Shown: positions 26,798-41,718 of the stretch, in pieces
Position numbering within the stretch: position 1 is the first letter of the stretch
Layout of the letters: every line of letters starts with the position of its first letter
Sequence record: PQ462667.1
Origin: Escherichia phage HMD-P3
Strand: one strand, 5' to 3'
DNA: 64,000 nt
Program-made: the position numbers and the translations under genes
The notes under the pieces: model-generated
Told to the model about the DNA's origin: nothing
The model's database searches: none
The model's input: the letters and a program-made list of their open reading frames with translations, nothing else

Positions 26798-27165
26798 AAT
26801 TGAAAACTCGCAGGGTTAGCGAAACCTCCCTCAATTAGCATGTTCTAGAATACTAATCAAGTTATCTCCTATTGCACGCAGCTCAAGACGAGTACGAATT
26901 TTCAATTGTGGCGGCTCTCCGAAACTCTTCTACTCTAGCCTTAGCAGCTTACTCCCGAACGCATGTCGGGGAAGTCTTACTAAGAGCATCAAATAGCACC
27001 GTTACACTTTGAGCCATAGATATATCAAGAAGTAGAAGGACTTGAACCTTCACGAGATAGACCATTTATCTCAGCCGCTTTATGAGGTATGTTGTAGGGA
27101 GTGGATGTTCCCTATAAACCTTTTAGGCAGCCCCGTCTACCGATTCCGGCATACTTCAAGAACTT

Positions 27166-28700: not shown

Positions 28701-28985
28701 AAACTCTTTAGTTTACTAAGGCTATTAGCTCGGCGTAACTACAGCACCTTCGCTTCAAGCGGAAGGAACCGCGTCATCTCGCAAACCCGATACACTATTC
28801 AGTTGCCGCTGAATCTAGTGGACTAATCTAGAACTTCTCCCGAATCATAGGGATCGTGCTTTTTGGCAGCCAGTCCTAGGTCGAGCTAATACCTTAGTGA
28901 ACTATGATGAGGATTTCTCCTCATCAATTTATATAAATATTATAACAAGAAATTAAGCATCAAGCAACTGCATTTTTCTTGAAAT

Positions 28986-29438: not shown

Positions 29439-29891
29439 TTAGCTTTCCTTCTCTTCACTTTATAAGATATATTATACAGAGAATTAAGCAGAATAGCAAA
29501 TGAATTTTTAATAAATTTACTTATTGTGTAGGCCACCTGGAGGCTACCAACCCCACGGCTGACAAAGAAGTTTGCGAGACCTCTCTTAAATGCCAGAATA
29601 GACCCGCCGATCTATCGGAACCTACATAATAAGTAAACTTTATAGTGTCATTCTAGACAGGACTCGAACCTGTTATCACTTGTGCGGACTTACGAGAACC
29701 ATTCTTTCACTCGAATCGAACGAGCTTCTGCCCTCGCCAAGCTGGTTTCCCCATCAACCACGCTAGAATGTTTGATTATTTTCAGTGCAAGAGTCCGAGT
29801 CTTGGACACGACCGCTTCGCAAGTACATAGGCAGCTTATCATGAGTCAGCACTTCCGAATTGCTAGCCCCGTGTTCTGCACTGAAATTTTG

Positions 29892-30537: not shown

Positions 30538-30639
30538 GCTTGTTTCCTCAGTTATTAATGAAAATGGTATCTGTGGCTGAATTCGATGTCAGCAATGATA
30601 GCTGGTTGGCTACCGGCTTACTTAACTCTACACAGAATT

Positions 30640-36167: not shown

Positions 36168-36180
36168 ACCAAAAAACAAA

Positions 36181-36213
36181 AGCCCCTGCCGAAAGGTAAG
36201 GGGCTTTTTCTTT
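36181..36213 (+). terminator. rho-independent terminator
   Basis: gcccct-gccgaaaggta-aggggc followed by ttttt. Confidence 0.65.
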
Positions 36214-36217
36214 TGCC

Positions 36218-36259
36218 TTAAATACAGAAAAGCCCGCGCTCTCAGAGGAAACGCGGGCT
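36218..36259 (-). terminator. rho-independent terminator (convergent)
   Basis: agcccgcg-ctctcagaggaaa-cgcgggct with a T-run on the minus strand (plus aaatacagaaa). Confidence 0.6.
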
Positions 36260-36283
36260 TGGTTAGAAGATTACGTGTAACTA

Positions 36284-37231
36284 TTACTTGTTACGCATAT
36301 CCATGATCATTTGACCATCGTAGCCAGTACCTACCACAGTCTGAGGCACACCACCTTGATACTTCTGAGCACGAATCATTTCAACTTCCAGTTGCTTCCA
36401 GCGAATCATCTCAGGAGTAATGGTACGTTGCAATGCGGCGTTAGCTTCAGCTTCTTTTTTAGCTGCGTACAGTTTAGCATCTGCGTCACGTTCATTAGCA
36501 ATAGCTTGGTTGTTGCGAGCTTCACGATCTGCTTCTGCTTGTTTAACTTTTTGCTGTGCTTCCTGTTCAACGCGGGCAAGTTCAGCTTTCGCAGCGTTAA
36601 CTTGCTCTTCACGAACTTTGGTATTCTGTACCTGTTCCATGATTACCGGTGGCAAAGTAATATCCTGAAGAAACACCTGCTTAACTGTGTAACCATATGG
36701 GCGTGCATACTCTTCAACTTCCTGTTGAATTGCAGTTTGCAATTGAGCCTGAATTTTAGCATCAAACAAATCTTGTGCTTTAGGTACAGACTTACCAAAC
36801 TCACGAATAGTAGACAGTAATTTTTCAGTTACATATTTGTCTAATGCTTGATCCTGGGTACCTGCATTAATACGGTTAATCGGTGCCTTAGAACCATCAA
36901 ACTGCAACATAACAGTCAGGTCAACAGTGGATTTAAACTTATCCTGACTAGGAACCTGAAGTTTATCTAATTTTAGAGCAATATCTTTAGTACTAAAAGT
37001 ATCGAAAGAAGCAAAAGGATTTACAATATGAAAGCCGGGTAATACTGGGCTAGGGTCAACTTTACCCAGGAAAGTCTGGGTTTTAACAGTACCGTCTTGG
37101 ACAACAGTATAAGAGTTAAGAGCCAGAACTAAACCTACCAAACCAACTGCAGCACCAATACCCCAACGTTTGATATTACGCATTAATTTTTGCTCATAAG
37201 TCAGTTCTTTAGTGTTTTTAGTAGCAAACAT
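36284..37231 (-). CDS. SPFH/band-7 (prohibitin/HflC-like) membrane protein
   Basis: N-terminal transmembrane helix WGIGAAVGLVGLVLAL, central domain, C-terminal Ala/Glu/Gln-rich coiled coil. Confidence 0.55.
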   Translation of the reverse strand: MFATKNTKELTYEQKLMRNIKRWGIGAAVGLVGLVLALNSYTVVQDGTVKTQTFLGKVDPSPVLPGFHIVNPFASFDTFSTKDIALKLDKLQVPSQDKFKSTVDLTVMLQFDGSKAPINRINAGTQDQALDKYVTEKLLSTIREFGKSVPKAQDLFDAKIQAQLQTAIQQEVEEYARPYGYTVKQVFLQDITLPPVIMEQVQNTKVREEQVNAAKAELARVEQEAQQKVKQAEADREARNNQAIANERDADAKLYAAKKEAEANAALQRTITPEMIRWKQLEVEMIRAQKYQGGVPQTVVGTGYDGQMIMDMRNK

Positions 37232-37265: not shown

Positions 37266-37340
37266 TGGCCGAGGTGACAGGATTCGAACCTGCATAAAGG
37301 AATTTAGAAGACTCCTGCCTCTCCCTTAGACTACACCTCG
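37266..37340 (-). tRNA. tRNA-Arg (TCT)
   Basis: Perfect acceptor cgaggtg/cacctcg; anticodon arm ggagt-ctTCTaa-attcc. Confidence 0.6.
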
Positions 37341-37844
37341 TTTAAGTATTTTTAAGAACTCTCGTAAAAACTCTTAAAAATACAGACGATACCGGGAGAG
37401 TCATAAGTCTCACTCATTAAGTATTTCAAGACAAAATACGGTAACGTCTACTATTTTCCAGTTTAAGTCAGGGTGACTTAGTGGTTATGTCCTGCGGTAT
37501 ATTGAGGACTCGGTTAGGCTCGGGGTCATGACTTCCCGCCTTTTGCTGCTACTCAACAGGAGTTATCGCGAATTACCTGTGCTATTGTGCACCATTAGTG
37601 ACATCTCTCATGCCAGCATTTCCCACTTTGTGGATAGCTTGAAAAACTACTCCGATATGGAGAAAGAACTTCACTATCCTAGAATACCTTCTAAAGTTCT
37701 TCTTTAGCCTGGACATAGTTAAATCGTAATAAAACTATTCAGCAGACTGGTTGGTTAGTCTGGAACCAACTACCGCGTGGTTTAGGCAGTGCGCAACTAA
37801 CCTCGGAAGCTTTTACTTTAAAAGCATCAGTTATCCAGTTCTTA

Positions 37845-37920
37845 CCGACCATAGGATTCGAACCTACATCTTCCACCAGTTACGGCTTGATAATACCAAT
37901 TATACTAGGACGGCAGTGTT
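37845..37920 (-). tRNA. tRNA-like element, no encoded CCA, anticodon not resolved
   Basis: T-arm gtagg-ttcgaat-cctat and 6/7-bp acceptor found; anticodon arm not convincingly foldable by hand. Confidence 0.3.
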
Positions 37921-38174
37921 ACTACATAAGTGATTTCCACACCCCACTATTTATAAATTAGAGAAGAGTTTAGGGGAGAGGTTTCAGACGCCTCATTTTA
38001 CACGTTCTAGCCACTAACCGGGATTGCCGCCCCCTGTGTACTAGTTTTACAACTAACCCACCGACTCTATTCAATGCGCTTCGGTTGGGATTATGCATTC
38101 AGCGTAATCGGCTCGCTGTTCCCTAATTTATGAATATATTATACAGAATTTAAAGGCATTTAGCAAATAAATTT

Positions 38175-38618
38175 TTAATTAAATTCGCCAGCAATCTGAG
38201 CAGCAGTACCACCATCATAACGCCCAGGAAATTCTTCCTTAATCGCTTTCATCAGCATACCTTTTGTAATTCCAGGGTTTAGCTTAACTAATTCTGCAAA
38301 GTATTTACGAATCTCAGTATCAGATAACTGAGGAGGCAGATACTCCTGCAACCACTTATTTAGAATGTATTCATACTGAGCAGACTGCAAGCTATAGCTA
38401 TCAAGATCTTGACCATGAAGTTTAGCTTTCATCTGGTTAATGCTTTTTAGTTGAGCTTTGAGATAAGACACAAATTGTTCAGAAGTGATGAAATCTTTAT
38501 CAATACGCTGAAGATCCCCGATTATGGTCTGATAACTTTTAGCGACTTCTTTATCAGAACCATTAAACTTAGAATCCTGCAAAGCTCTACGCAAAACATC
38601 TAAAATATTCTCTTCCAT
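38175..38618 (-). CDS. hypothetical protein
   Basis: 147-aa ORF. Confidence 0.55.
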   Translation of the reverse strand: MEENILDVLRRALQDSKFNGSDKEVAKSYQTIIGDLQRIDKDFITSEQFVSYLKAQLKSINQMKAKLHGQDLDSYSLQSAQYEYILNKWLQEYLPPQLSDTEIRKYFAELVKLNPGITKGMLMKAIKEEFPGRYDGGTAAQIAGEFN

Positions 38619-40763: not shown

Positions 40764-40946
40764 TTACAGACCAATTGCCAGCAGAGTGCGCAGAACAGTA
40801 TCGTTACTGTTATCAATTTTAGGATTAGCACGATTTAGTAGATTAAAGATTTTCTGGATACCTGATTGACGTTCAGCCATACGACGGATACCCAGATTAC
40901 GAGTAGCTTTCTTACCATTTTTACGAACATTTTTAGATACTGGCAT
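40764..40946 (-). CDS. small basic protein
   Basis: 60-aa ORF with promoter/leader module upstream. Confidence 0.45.
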   Translation of the reverse strand: MPVSKNVRKNGKKATRNLGIRRMAERQSGIQKIFNLLNRANPKIDNSNDTVLRTLLAIGL

Positions 40947-41016
40947 ATTTGTTTTCCTTTTATTGTTTTCTCAAATTTATGAATATATTATACAGAATTT
41001 TGGAGCCGGAAGCAAA

Positions 41017-41718
41017 TCAAATTTTCATTTTTTCGATCATAGCTGCAACACAATAGCTCTCAACTAAGGCATCAAATGCAGGATCATGCTTAACCGGATA
41101 AATCCCATAACGAATAGTGTCCATCTTCTCCATTTTAGCTATTGCCCAGCTAATACCTTCGGTCTCTAGAGCTTTATAACTGTATCCAGCTTGCATCCAG
41201 AGATTACGAAGAGATCGAACATTGCCCAAATTCCAGAATTTCCACGGAACTACTTCTTCATTGGTTCCAGCATGGAACGTGTTTGCAGAGTAGATAGTCA
41301 TATCAAACTCTGGGCCATTGCCATAATACAAAGCATTTTCGCCTAGAGCCAACTCCATAATATTTTTAGCCATAGAGAAGGCAGCATAGTTTGAGCCAAG
41401 TTTATTAGTGCAATGATGTTTACCATTTTGGAAGGCAATCAGTTTTGGATTACGCTCGTTCATAGCTTCCATAATGTGGATAGCAGACGGGCTATTTTTA
41501 GCTTGATCCATCCAGAATGCTAGAGTAGATGCTGTAACTTTGGCACCAGAATTAAGTTGATCTTGCACATCCAAAGTAACAAATACTAGATCAGGGTCTT
41601 TATCAATCCCATGCATAGCTACAAAAGCGAAAGAAGGCATTGCGATATGAGTAGTACCACAATCTCCTGGAGTTCCTAGAGATTCAATATCTAGCATACC
41701 AAATGGTTTTACTTTCAT
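41017..41718 (-). CDS. putative DEDD-family 3'-5' exonuclease
   Basis: N-terminal MLDIESLG (Exo I D-x-E). Confidence 0.45.
   Translation of the reverse strand: MKVKPFGMLDIESLGTPGDCGTTHIAMPSFAFVAMHGIDKDPDLVFVTLDVQDQLNSGAKVTASTLAFWMDQAKNSPSAIHIMEAMNERNPKLIAFQNGKHHCTNKLGSNYAAFSMAKNIMELALGENALYYGNGPEFDMTIYSANTFHAGTNEEVVPWKFWNLGNVRSLRNLWMQAGYSYKALETEGISWAIAKMEKMDTIRYGIYPVKHDPAFDALVESYCVAAMIEKMKI

What the first reader, a model, noticed from the sequence alone, without database searches (positions are those of the whole stretch)
37341..38170. 830-nt noncoding transcript region inside the tRNA cluster
Between tRNA-Arg (37266-37340) and gene 38175..38618 there is no credible ORF (the only track ORF, 37751..37933, is on the wrong strand and overlaps a tRNA-like element). 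An early promoter at about 38120-38170 points into it, and it contains a tRNA-like element (about 37845-37920) with good T-arm and acceptor but an unresolved anticodon arm and no CCA, plus a plus-strand segment with a D-loop-like AGTGGTTAT. Candidate for a novel phage ncRNA or degenerate tRNA.
Basis: partly seen in the sequence, partly recalled or inferred. Interest (0 to 1): 0.55.

Follow-up and report, generated by a model that had tools for sequence, protein, structure and literature searches.

The report
Phage T5 "RNAX" structured noncoding RNA
The 830-base gap is the counterpart of phage T5's annotated but never explained "RNAX" stable RNA: a large, folded, modular noncoding RNA made together with tRNA-Arg, found in six T5-like phage genera and absent from the RNA family catalogue.

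Summary
On the minus strand a near-consensus promoter (38166-38138) reads into about 790 nt with no conserved ORF, ending at tRNA-Arg (37340-37266). A tRNA-like element lies at 37914-37843.

It is not new as an object. It is the ortholog of T5 rnaX ("stable RNA with unknown functions"), also annotated in BF23, phage 5 and DT571/2.

It is neither a decayed tRNA nor spacer. Homologs of 640-1300 nt occur in six Demerecviridae genera, with invariant blocks separated by swappable insertions. Covariation supports a 5'/3'-closing helix, a pseudoknot, a 12-pair helix carrying the tRNA-like module, and several hairpins. Pairing is 90-95%, against 30-52% for slid controls. G.U far outnumbers A.C, which fixes the transcribed strand.

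The tRNA-like element is a peripheral module. Unrelated hairpins replace it in four lineages.

No Rfam family matches apart from the tRNA model.

Function is unknown. My best inference is a stable trans-acting folded RNA, released by RNase P cleavage at tRNA-Arg and analogous in context to GOLLD/ROOL. The existence of the RNA is already known; its structure and family-wide spread appear undescribed.

The parts
38138..38166 (-). Sigma-70-type early promoter (TTGCTA, 17-nt spacer, TATAAT), with an A/T-rich stretch upstream. It is homologous to T5 promoter P 16-17.
   Evidence: 10 of 12 consensus positions; alignment to the annotated T5 promoter.
37341..38131 (-). RNAX transcript. The predicted start is about 38131-38124. 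The 3' end abuts tRNA-Arg, which implies release by RNase P.
   Evidence: T5 rnaX nt 8-517 and 582-719 align to 37970-37456 and 37478-37341. BF23 rnaX is 97% identical.
37955..38129 (-). 5' module closed by helix P1 (38129-38119 with 37965-37955). It contains:
- hairpin P1a (38118-38100);
- a pseudoknot between the P1a loop (38111-38106) and 38066-38061;
- P1c (38059-38057 with 37976-37974);
- hairpin P1d (37994-37978).
T5 lacks the module, so P1 there is a plain hairpin. In SE24 and KFSSM an HNH endonuclease gene sits in its place.
   Evidence: 92.9% paired against 41-52% for slid controls, with 13 covarying pairs; three pseudoknot versions, CCGA:UCGG, CAGA:UCUG and CAUA:UAUG..
37935..37949 (-). 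Near-invariant junction block UAGUGGGGUGUGGAA. Its pairing partner is unresolved.
   Evidence: conflicting partners.
37826..37934 (-). P3 arm: a 12-pair helix (37934-37921 with 37839-37826) with two conserved non-canonical positions. It carries a variable tip module.
   Evidence: helix 1 is 99.7% paired and 7 of 12 pairs show changes on both sides.
37843..37914 (-). tRNA-like module at the tip of P3. It has acceptor, D and T arms (T loop UUCGAAU), a degenerate anticodon arm and no CCA.
   Evidence: 33.7 bits; not called by ARAGORN; different 'anticodons' in relatives; replaced by other hairpins in GSW6/L055, PM135, PSTCR5 and PR1.
37809..37825 (-). P4 hairpin (GCUUUU/AAAAGC).
   Evidence: helix 5 is 91% paired with 3 covarying pairs.
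37542..37808 (-). Central region with conserved blocks (CUAAACCACG, AAAGAAGAACUUUAG) and predicted hairpins. Its consensus structure was not resolved.
37516..37541 (-). Hairpin H7. Its apical loop presents the palindrome GUCAUGAC (37532-37525).
   Evidence: the stem covaries at 5 of 8 pairs while the loop is invariant in five genera; the palindrome occurs once in the window; the extension is absent in Providencia phages.
37458..37509 (-). Hairpin H8 (37509-37489) and hairpin H9 (AAGUCA/UGACUU) enclosed by CCA/UGG.
   Evidence: all 5 H8 pairs covary; H9 is invariant.
37384..37457 (-). Tail domain. It occurs in two alternative versions among relatives, closed by AGACG/CGUCU or GACGG/CCGUC.
37346..37383 (-). 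Terminal 17-pair hairpin capped by a UACG tetraloop. It is nearly invariant, and its motif sits at the P3 tip in PM135.
   Evidence: 100% paired, one-sided G.U changes.
37266..37340 (-). tRNA-Arg(UCU), co-transcribed. It follows RNAX in every genus examined.
36230..37231 (-). SPFH/Band 7 'lipoprotein' ORF (36284-37231) and an intrinsic terminator (36260-36230) that ends the transcription unit.

Best explanation
The region encodes the ortholog of phage T5 RNAX, a large modular structured noncoding RNA.

Shown:
- It lies behind a strong early-type promoter and directly upstream of tRNA-Arg.
- It has no conserved ORF.
- It belongs to a family found in six Demerecviridae genera.
- Its helices covary.
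- Its 5' end is locked in helix P1 and its 3' end in a 17-pair UACG-capped hairpin.
- The tRNA-like element is an exchangeable module at the tip of helix P3.

Inferred:
- The primary transcript runs through RNAX, tRNA-Arg and the SPFH gene.
- RNase P cleavage at the 5' end of tRNA-Arg releases RNAX.
- The two terminal helices protect RNAX from exonucleases, which would account for 'stable RNA'.
- The released RNA acts in trans as a folded particle. Its universal core (the GGGGUG junction, P3, P4) and add-on hairpins would bind a protein or RNA partner connected with tRNA or translation during host takeover.
- This is the same genomic niche as GOLLD and ROOL RNAs.
- Self-association through the palindromic H7 loop is possible but unproven.
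For: Identity:
- 91-99% nucleotide identity to annotated rnaX of T5, BF23 and DT571/2, in the same position between promoter P 16-17 and tRNA-Arg.

Distribution:
- Tequintavirus, Epseptimavirus, Sugarlandvirus, Hongcheonvirus, Novosibvirus and Priunavirus each have a 640-1300 nt stretch with no annotated or only doubtful short CDS, followed by tRNA-Arg.
- Zero matches for two family patterns in 185,579 bacterial and archaeal genomes.

Structure:
- Pairing is 90.5%, 92.9% and 94.8% in three sub-alignments, against 30-52% for slid controls.
- 18, 13 and 16 pairs show changes on both sides.
- 0 of 500 shuffles reach the observed covariation score.
- The pseudoknot has three compensatory versions.
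- G.U to A.C ratios of 87:7 and 45:14 fix the strand.
- Indels are confined to helix tips.

Noncoding:
-.

Analogy:
- ROOL and GOLLD are phage-encoded, lie near tRNA islands, and GOLLD sometimes holds tRNAs in its linker (PMC12286853).
Against: - No expression data for this phage. The basis of the T5 'stable RNA' annotation could not be read.
- The MFE z-score of the whole RNA is only -0.6.
- The central region and the partner of GGGGUG are unresolved.
- Covarying lineages are few and recombine, so the events are not independent. The A3 structure was predicted from the same alignment it was counted on.
- The 5' module, the tRNA-like module and the palindrome hairpin are each missing in some phages, so none can be essential to a shared function.
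- No trans target or partner was identified, and there is no rRNA similarity or complementarity.
- A PHROG family of unknown function matches one overlapping 45-aa ORF.
Confidence: 0.6

Rival explanations
1. Cis-acting leader. The structured RNA exists to control or assist expression of what follows it: processing of tRNA-Arg(UCU), and translation or stability of the downstream ORFs. It would have no function once cleaved off.
For: The RNAX to tRNA-Arg order is kept in all six genera. There is one promoter upstream and one terminator after the SPFH gene. The terminal hairpin sits 5 nt before the tRNA.
Against: A 640-1300 nt ornate leader is far more than tRNA processing needs. In Epseptimavirus, Sugarlandvirus, Novosibvirus and Priunavirus, 1-2 ORFs or a homing endonuclease separate the RNA from the tRNA without loss of the RNA. 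T5 annotators recorded it as a separate stable RNA. No terminator or anti-terminator, or RBS-sequestering alternative, was seen.
Confidence: 0.2
2. DNA-level element, such as a replication origin or primer transcript, a protein-binding array or a recombination hotspot, whose sequence blocks are conserved for reasons other than RNA folding.
For: There is an invariant 8-bp palindrome. Homing endonuclease genes insert here. The region is a mosaic among relatives.
Against: Compensatory changes preserve pairing, and the strong excess of G.U over A.C is strand-specific. That is expected for RNA and not for duplex DNA.
Confidence: 0.05
3. Graveyard of decayed tRNA genes. The gap would be neutral remains of tRNA genes, like other parts of the T5 tRNA region.
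For: One element scores as tRNA in Rfam. ARAGORN calls it SeC, Ser or Leu in some relatives. T-arm-like hairpins occur elsewhere in Proteus and Providencia versions.
Against: Only 72 nt are tRNA-like. The non-tRNA helices covary, and sequence blocks are invariant across genera whose flanks have diverged to about 70%. The tRNA-like part is the least conserved piece.
Confidence: 0.03
4. One or more small proteins are encoded here, for example the 45-aa ORF 37739-37876(-), which matches phrog_19105.
For: phrog_19105 hit at E=4e-35. Several genome records annotate short hypothetical proteins here.
Against: ORFs in several frames and on both strands are 'conserved' equally among near-identical genomes, and are broken by stops or indels in GSW6, YZU-L1, T5 and the Klebsiella phages. 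None hits Pfam. Indels are not multiples of three. The ORF lies over the covarying P3, P4 and T-arm helices.
Confidence: 0.03

Closest known systems
T5 rnaX / RNAX (GenBank misc_RNA T5s08, 'stable RNA with unknown functions'; also annotated in BF23, Salmonella phage 5 and DT571/2)
   Same: Orthologous sequence (91-99% identity), the same promoter, and the same position directly upstream of tRNA-Arg.
   Different: The window copy, like BF23, carries a 147-nt structured 5' module that T5 lacks. It lacks T5's 87-nt duplication in the 3' domain. Neither the public annotation nor the searchable literature gives any structure, family or function.
GOLLD and ROOL RNAs (large ornate phage and prophage RNAs)
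   Same: Comparable size (about 600-1300 nt). All are phage-encoded, sit at or in a tRNA island, and have many helices with pseudoknots. The 5' part is less conserved or dispensable. In GOLLD a tRNA sometimes sits inside a variable region, which parallels the tRNA-like module here (PMC12286853).
   Different: No match to either covariance model even at E up to 10. The sequence blocks and helices are different. The hosts are virulent phages of Enterobacterales, with no prophage or bacterial copies. Multimer formation is untested.
Stable RNAs of the phage T4 tRNA gene cluster (species 1 and 2, rnaD/rnaC; recalled from my own knowledge)
   Same: Stable non-tRNA RNAs of unknown function, co-transcribed and processed with phage tRNAs.
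   Different: The T4 RNAs are about 120-140 nt. No sequence relation was tested here. RNAX is five to ten times larger.
tRNA-like structures embedded in long noncoding RNAs and viral RNAs (for example MALAT1 mascRNA, plant virus 3' TLS; from my own knowledge)
   Same: An acceptor, T-arm and D-arm 'elbow' mimic inside a longer RNA, without decoding capacity.
   Different: Here the acceptor stem continues into a long enclosing helix (P3), there is no free CCA end, and the module is dispensable in several lineages.
HIV-1 DIS-type kissing-loop hairpins (from my own knowledge)
   Same: Hairpin H7 presents a self-complementary hexamer or octamer (UCAUGA / GUCAUGAC), preceded by unpaired purines, in an 8-10 nt apical loop.
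   Different: Dimerisation is not shown. The palindrome never varies, whereas kissing palindromes usually drift. It is absent from the Providencia phage versions.

Membership tests
T5 RNAX (rnaX) family | Nucleotide homology to annotated rnaX of T5 or BF23 | tested here: met
   97.2% identity over 100% of the query to BF23 rnaX. 91-97% identity over T5 rnaX nt 8-517 and 582-719.
T5 RNAX (rnaX) family | Position between early promoter P 16-17 (at the 3' end of the YqeY-like gene) and tRNA-Arg(UCU), on the same strand | tested here: met
T5 RNAX (rnaX) family | Accumulates as a stable RNA in infected cells | not testable with these tools
   Only the GenBank note is available. No paper was retrievable.
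tRNA (Rfam tRNA model), for the element at 37914-37843 | Score at or above the Rfam gathering threshold | tested here: met
   33.7 bits against 29.
tRNA (Rfam tRNA model), for the element at 37914-37843 | Canonical anticodon arm (5-bp stem, 7-nt loop) | tested here: not met
   18 nt are left unaligned by the model. ARAGORN makes no call in the window. Relatives give SeC(tca), Ser(act), Ser(cga), Leu(tag) or a 19-nt insertion.
tRNA (Rfam tRNA model), for the element at 37914-37843 | Free acceptor end with an encoded 3' CCA, as seen in the bona fide tRNAs of this phage that were read | tested here: not met
   The 3' flank is AAGA and pairs into helix P3. Positions 1-72 form G.U or G.A, and 5-68 is mismatched. 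tRNA-Arg and the six other window tRNAs printed all end in CCA.
tRNA (Rfam tRNA model), for the element at 37914-37843 | Retained in orthologous loci | tested here: not met
   Unrelated hairpins replace it in GSW6/L055, PM135, PSTCR5 and PR1. The D arm is deleted in L067.
GOLLD / ROOL large phage RNAs | Match to the Rfam covariance model | tested here: not met
   No hit at E up to 1 in 4 kb or at E up to 10 in the 811-nt region. No hit in five relatives.
GOLLD / ROOL large phage RNAs | Phage-encoded, near tRNA genes, several hundred nt, many covarying helices | tested here: met
   the description of these families comes from PMC12286853.
GOLLD / ROOL large phage RNAs | Homo-oligomeric assembly | not testable with these tools
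   Only a palindromic apical loop hints at it.
Other large catalytic or structural RNAs (RNase P RNA, tmRNA, group I/II introns, OLE, raiA) | Match to the Rfam model, or to ARAGORN for tmRNA | tested here: not met

The most novel reading that the evidence does not exclude
RNAX would be a previously undescribed class of large, ornate, modular phage RNA, with these features:
- a universal core of about 100 nt: the GGGGUG junction, helix P3 with fixed non-canonical pairs, and P4;
- a pseudoknotted 5' module;
- exchangeable tip modules, including a tRNA elbow mimic;
- a palindromic kissing-type loop.

It would work as a self-assembling or partner-binding RNA particle in tRNA- or translation-linked host takeover or counter-defence. 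That would make it a functional analog of GOLLD/ROOL, but in the genetically tractable T5 / E. coli system.
Probability: 0.3. Interest if true: 0.75.

Novelty: already known. Interest (0 to 1): 0.5.

Why it matters
The RNA has been annotated in T5 as 'RNAX' for about twenty years. I found no structure, no Rfam family and no function for it in any source I could search.

This analysis shows it is a conserved, covariation-supported, modular RNA of 0.64-1.3 kb, present in all six Demerecviridae genera examined. Its genomic niche (phage, tRNA island, embedded tRNA-like piece) is the same as that of GOLLD and ROOL, whose function is also unknown.

T5 and E. coli are easy to manipulate. RNAX could therefore make the open question 'what do large ornate phage RNAs do?' directly testable by deletion, complementation, pull-down and cryo-EM.

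There is a practical point too. Genome annotators currently place spurious ORFs, 'tRNA-OTHER', 'tRNA-Sec' or nothing at this locus.

Tried and rejected
- Rfam at permissive thresholds on the window and five relatives: only the tRNA model matched.
- Mimicry of, or antisense pairing to, E. coli rRNA. This was prompted by an apparent resemblance of GUCAUGAC and UGGGGUG to the 3' strand of 16S helix 44. Local alignments of both strands against 16S, 23S and 5S scored no better than shuffles.
- Small-protein coding: rejected. The phrog_19105 hit is judged to be a spurious ORF family.
- A plus-strand tRNA at the AGTGGTTAT string: none.
- Derivation of the tRNA-like module from one of the window's 22 tRNAs: no close relative.
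- A thermodynamic signal for the whole RNA: z = -0.6, uninformative.
- De novo all-against-all covariation scan: too noisy.
- Global RNAalifold on two alignments: different long-range partners for GGGGUG and for the central region, so I do not claim a full secondary structure.
- Pattern scans of IMG/VR returned only T5-like isolates plus a few contigs. The metagenome scan added nine T5-like contigs. Bacterial genomes gave nothing.
- Literature searches for RNAX, T5 stable RNAs or a T5 transcriptome found nothing relevant.
- The idea that the palindrome hairpin is universal was dropped after the Providencia phages were read.

Full report
WHAT IS IN THE SEQUENCE

The window is a T5-like phage, about 99% identical to several Salmonella and Escherichia Tequintavirus genomes. 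Genes in this part run on the minus strand.

ARAGORN finds 22 tRNAs. The last is tRNA-Arg(UCU) at 37340-37266.

Between it and the stop of the YqeY-like gene (38175-38618) there are only ORFs of 25-60 aa on both strands.

A promoter, TTGCTA-17 nt-TATAAT, lies on the minus strand at 38166-38138 and matches 10 of 12 consensus positions. The only strong minus-strand terminator lies at 36260-36230, after the SPFH/Band 7 'lipoprotein' ORF. The predicted transcription unit is therefore promoter, about 790 nt without a conserved ORF, tRNA-Arg, SPFH gene, terminator.

The Rfam tRNA model scores 33.7 bits (threshold 29) at 37914-37843 on the minus strand, but 18 nt of the anticodon arm stay unaligned. 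ARAGORN does not call the element.

The plus-strand AGTGGTTAT (37470-37478) is the complement of a conserved minus-strand block. It has no tRNA around it.

IDENTITY

The same place in the T5 reference genome is annotated as misc_RNA rnaX, 'RNAX, stable RNA with unknown functions' (40848-41566). It is preceded by 'promoter P 16-17' and abuts tRNA-Arg. BF23, Salmonella phage 5 and DT571/2 carry the same annotation.

T5 rnaX nt 8-517 and 582-719 align to window 37970-37456 and 37478-37341. BF23 rnaX is 97% identical over the full length.

Relative to T5, the window has 147 extra nt immediately after the transcription start (38117-37971). It lacks an 87-nt internal duplication that T5 has.

The object is therefore already annotated, not newly found. 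I found no paper on it in the searchable library. No Rfam family covers it apart from the tRNA model on the 72-nt element.

A FAMILY ACROSS SIX GENERA OF DEMERECVIRIDAE

Blastn and locus inspection show a stretch of 640-1300 nt at the equivalent place in six genera. In each it has either no annotated CDS or only doubtful short ones.

- Tequintavirus.
- Epseptimavirus: SE24, GSW6, 26175I, YZU-L1, STyj5-1, KFSSM, phiR2-01.
- Sugarlandvirus: Klebsiella phages IME260, RCIP0070, HS37.
- Hongcheonvirus: Pectobacterium phage DU_PP_V.
- Novosibvirus: Proteus phage PM135.
- Priunavirus: Providencia phages PSTCR5 and PR1.

In every case tRNA-Arg(UCU) follows, either directly or after one or two small ORFs or a homing endonuclease gene.

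Alignments show strictly conserved blocks separated by insertions of very different length, which is the usual signature of a structured RNA.

Two family-specific patterns have no match in 185,579 representative bacterial and archaeal genomes. In IMG/VR and in metagenomes they hit only T5-like contigs.

STRUCTURE

I tested three sub-alignments with the pair-counting tool.

(a) The arm carrying the tRNA-like element (30 sequences).
- 90.5% of cells are paired, against 35-41% when partners are slid.
- 18 pairs show changes on both sides.
- 0 of 500 shuffles reach the observed covariation score.
- The 12-pair enclosing helix P3 (37934-37921 with 37839-37826) is 99.7% paired, and 7 of its pairs covary.
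- P3 keeps two non-canonical positions (C.C or U.U, and G.G) in all genera.
- The P4 hairpin (37825-37809) also covaries.

(b) The 5' module (19 sequences).
- 92.9% paired, against 41-52% for slid controls.
- 13 covarying pairs.
- Helix P1 joins the first nucleotides of the transcript (38129-38119) to 37965-37955. In T5, which lacks the module, the same two strands form a simple hairpin.
- The loop of hairpin P1a (38111-38106) pairs with 38066-38061 to form a pseudoknot. It occurs in three compensatory versions: CCGA:UCGG, CAGA:UCUG (DU_PP_V, PM135) and CAUA:UAUG (Providencia phages).

(c) The 3' domain (12 sequences, RNAalifold structure).
- 94.8% paired, against 30-50% for slid controls.
- 16 covarying pairs.
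- All five pairs of hairpin H8 covary, and five of the eight pairs of hairpin H7.
- This structure was predicted from the same alignment, so the slid control flatters it.

In the tested helices, G.U outnumbers A.C by 87:7 and 45:14. The folded molecule is therefore the minus-strand transcript, not duplex DNA or the opposite strand.

The single-sequence centroid fold of the window RNA independently recovers P1a, P3, the T arm, P4, H7, H8, H9, the tail domain and the terminal hairpin. The overall MFE z-score, however, is only -0.6.

I could not settle the central region (37808-37542) or the partner of the invariant GGGGUG. Two alignments gave different answers.

THE tRNA-LIKE ELEMENT

It sits at the tip of P3, and its acceptor stem continues into that helix. 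It has D and T arms (T loop UUCGAAU) but no encoded CCA. Acceptor pair 1-72 is G.U or G.A, and 5-68 is mismatched. tRNA-Arg and the six other window tRNAs I read out all end in CCA.

The anticodon arm differs in every lineage. ARAGORN reads SeC(tca), Ser(act), Ser(cga), Leu(tag) or nothing. Klebsiella phages have a covarying 19-nt extension there.

The whole module is replaced by unrelated hairpins in GSW6/L055, PM135, PSTCR5 and PR1. In one metagenomic relative it has lost its D arm.

It has no close relative among the phage's own tRNAs.

It is therefore a dispensable peripheral module, a tRNA 'elbow' mimic or captured tRNA remnant. It is neither a decoding tRNA nor the essence of the locus.

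OTHER MODULES

Hairpin H7 (37541-37516) presents the palindrome GUCAUGAC in an 8-10 nt apical loop. The loop is invariant in five genera, while the stem changes completely: AGGC/GCCU, AGAC/GUCU, GUGAC/GUCAC, CCUAGAC/GUCUAGG, UAGGCA/UGCCUA. The palindrome occurs once in the 64-kb window.

This is the architecture of a kissing-loop dimerisation hairpin. Two things argue for caution. The palindrome never drifts, and the extension is missing in the Providencia phages, which keep only a short hairpin.

The 3' terminal hairpin (37383-37346) has 17 pairs capped by UACG and is nearly invariant. In PM135 the same motif (15 of 19 identical) sits at the tip of P3 instead, and H7 lies upstream of the GGGGUG block. 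Module order is therefore not fixed.

In SE24 and KFSSM an HNH homing endonuclease gene occupies the place of the 5' module.

The only part present in all six genera is the GGGGUG junction with P3, P4 and the start of the next helix.

NOT CODING

The five longest ORFs are intact only among genomes at least 95% identical. Elsewhere they are truncated, frameshifted or interrupted. None matches Pfam.

One 45-aa ORF matches phrog_19105 (unknown function). It lies over P3, P4 and the T arm, and is broken in GSW6 and YZU-L1. I regard that family as an annotation artefact.

HOW IT MOST LIKELY WORKS

Shown:
- promoter, strand, noncoding nature, fold elements, and linkage to tRNA-Arg;
- the 5' end paired in P1 and the 3' end in a long hairpin 5 nt before tRNA-Arg.

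Inferred from established tRNA processing:
- RNase P cleavage at tRNA-Arg +1 releases RNAX;
- the two terminal helices shield it from 5'-end-dependent RNase E and from 3' exonucleases, which fits the 'stable RNA' annotation.

Inferred by analogy:
- the released RNA acts in trans as a folded particle, binding a protein or RNA partner tied to tRNA or translation during early infection.

ROOL and GOLLD RNAs are likewise phage-encoded and lie near tRNA islands. GOLLD has a less conserved 5' part and sometimes carries tRNAs in its variable linker. Both assemble through kissing loops (PMC12286853).

RNAX fails the membership test for those families, since there is no covariance-model match. I claim similarity of niche, not membership.

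The main rival is a purely cis-acting leader for tRNA-Arg and the downstream gene. It fits the conserved gene order. It fits poorly with the size of the RNA, its annotation as a separate stable species, and the ORFs that separate RNA and tRNA in four genera.

DNA-level, tRNA-graveyard and small-protein readings are contradicted by the strand-specific covariation.

VERDICT

The RNA itself is already known by annotation as T5 RNAX.

What appears undescribed:
- its distribution across six Demerecviridae genera;
- its covariation-supported modular architecture;
- the peripheral status of the tRNA-like element;
- the parallel with large ornate phage RNAs.

Function remains unknown. The mechanism I give is an inference and should be tested as listed in the next steps.

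Noticed in passing
window 26799-26904, 26909-27015, 27016-27160, 28720-28891, 29525-29627, 29646-29770, 30565-30637 (all minus strand): Homologs (84-99% identity) of the seven other T5 'stable RNAs with unknown functions' (rnaIII, rnaI, rna1, rna2H, rnaIV, rna2, rna3) are all present in the tRNA region. None was analysed for structure.
   Followed up: partly
L004 674-1200 (SE24); L045 717-1199 (KFSSM); L048 2243-2803 (phiR2-01): Homing-endonuclease-type genes sit inside or next to the RNAX locus. In SE24 and KFSSM an HNH gene replaces the 5' module. In phiR2-01 a 186-aa ORF lies between RNAX and tRNA-Arg.
   Followed up: partly
L001 (T5) and L062, inside the 3' domain; window equivalent about 37458-37480: T5 and one metagenomic relative carry an 87-nt duplication that repeats the GUCACCUUGAC...AAACUGGAA block.
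   Followed up: no
window 37739-37876 (-): A 45-aa ORF matches phrog_19105 (unknown function, E=4e-35). It lies over covarying RNA helices and is broken in several relatives. It is probably a spurious protein family created by automatic annotation.
   Followed up: yes
L047 5440-5505 (PM135); L069 about 1440-1490 (PSTCR5): Proteus and Providencia phage versions contain an acceptor/T-arm-like minihelix (GGUUCAACUCC / GGUUCGAUUCC) at a different place in the RNA. Larger 5' modules of Klebsiella and Epseptimavirus versions contain GGUU(A/C)GAGA T-loop-like strings.
   Followed up: no
window 38175-38618 (-) and 36284-37231 (-): The upstream 'tRNA amidotransferase' gene matches Pfam YqeY just below the cut-off (25.4 against 27 bits). 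It is adjacent to RNAX in Tequinta-, Epseptima- and Novosibvirus but not in Sugarlandvirus. The downstream 'lipoprotein' is an SPFH/Band 7 protein.
   Followed up: partly
one search hit list (MG065692.1, OR847704.1 and others): Records named Campylobacter phage and Listeria phage carry near-identical T5-like sequence. They are probably mislabelled or contaminated submissions.
   Followed up: no
window 36174-36260: The terminator region after the SPFH gene corresponds to T5's 'efficient bidirectional terminator', next to an annotated major single-strand nick site. The nick consensus was not checked in the window.
   Followed up: no
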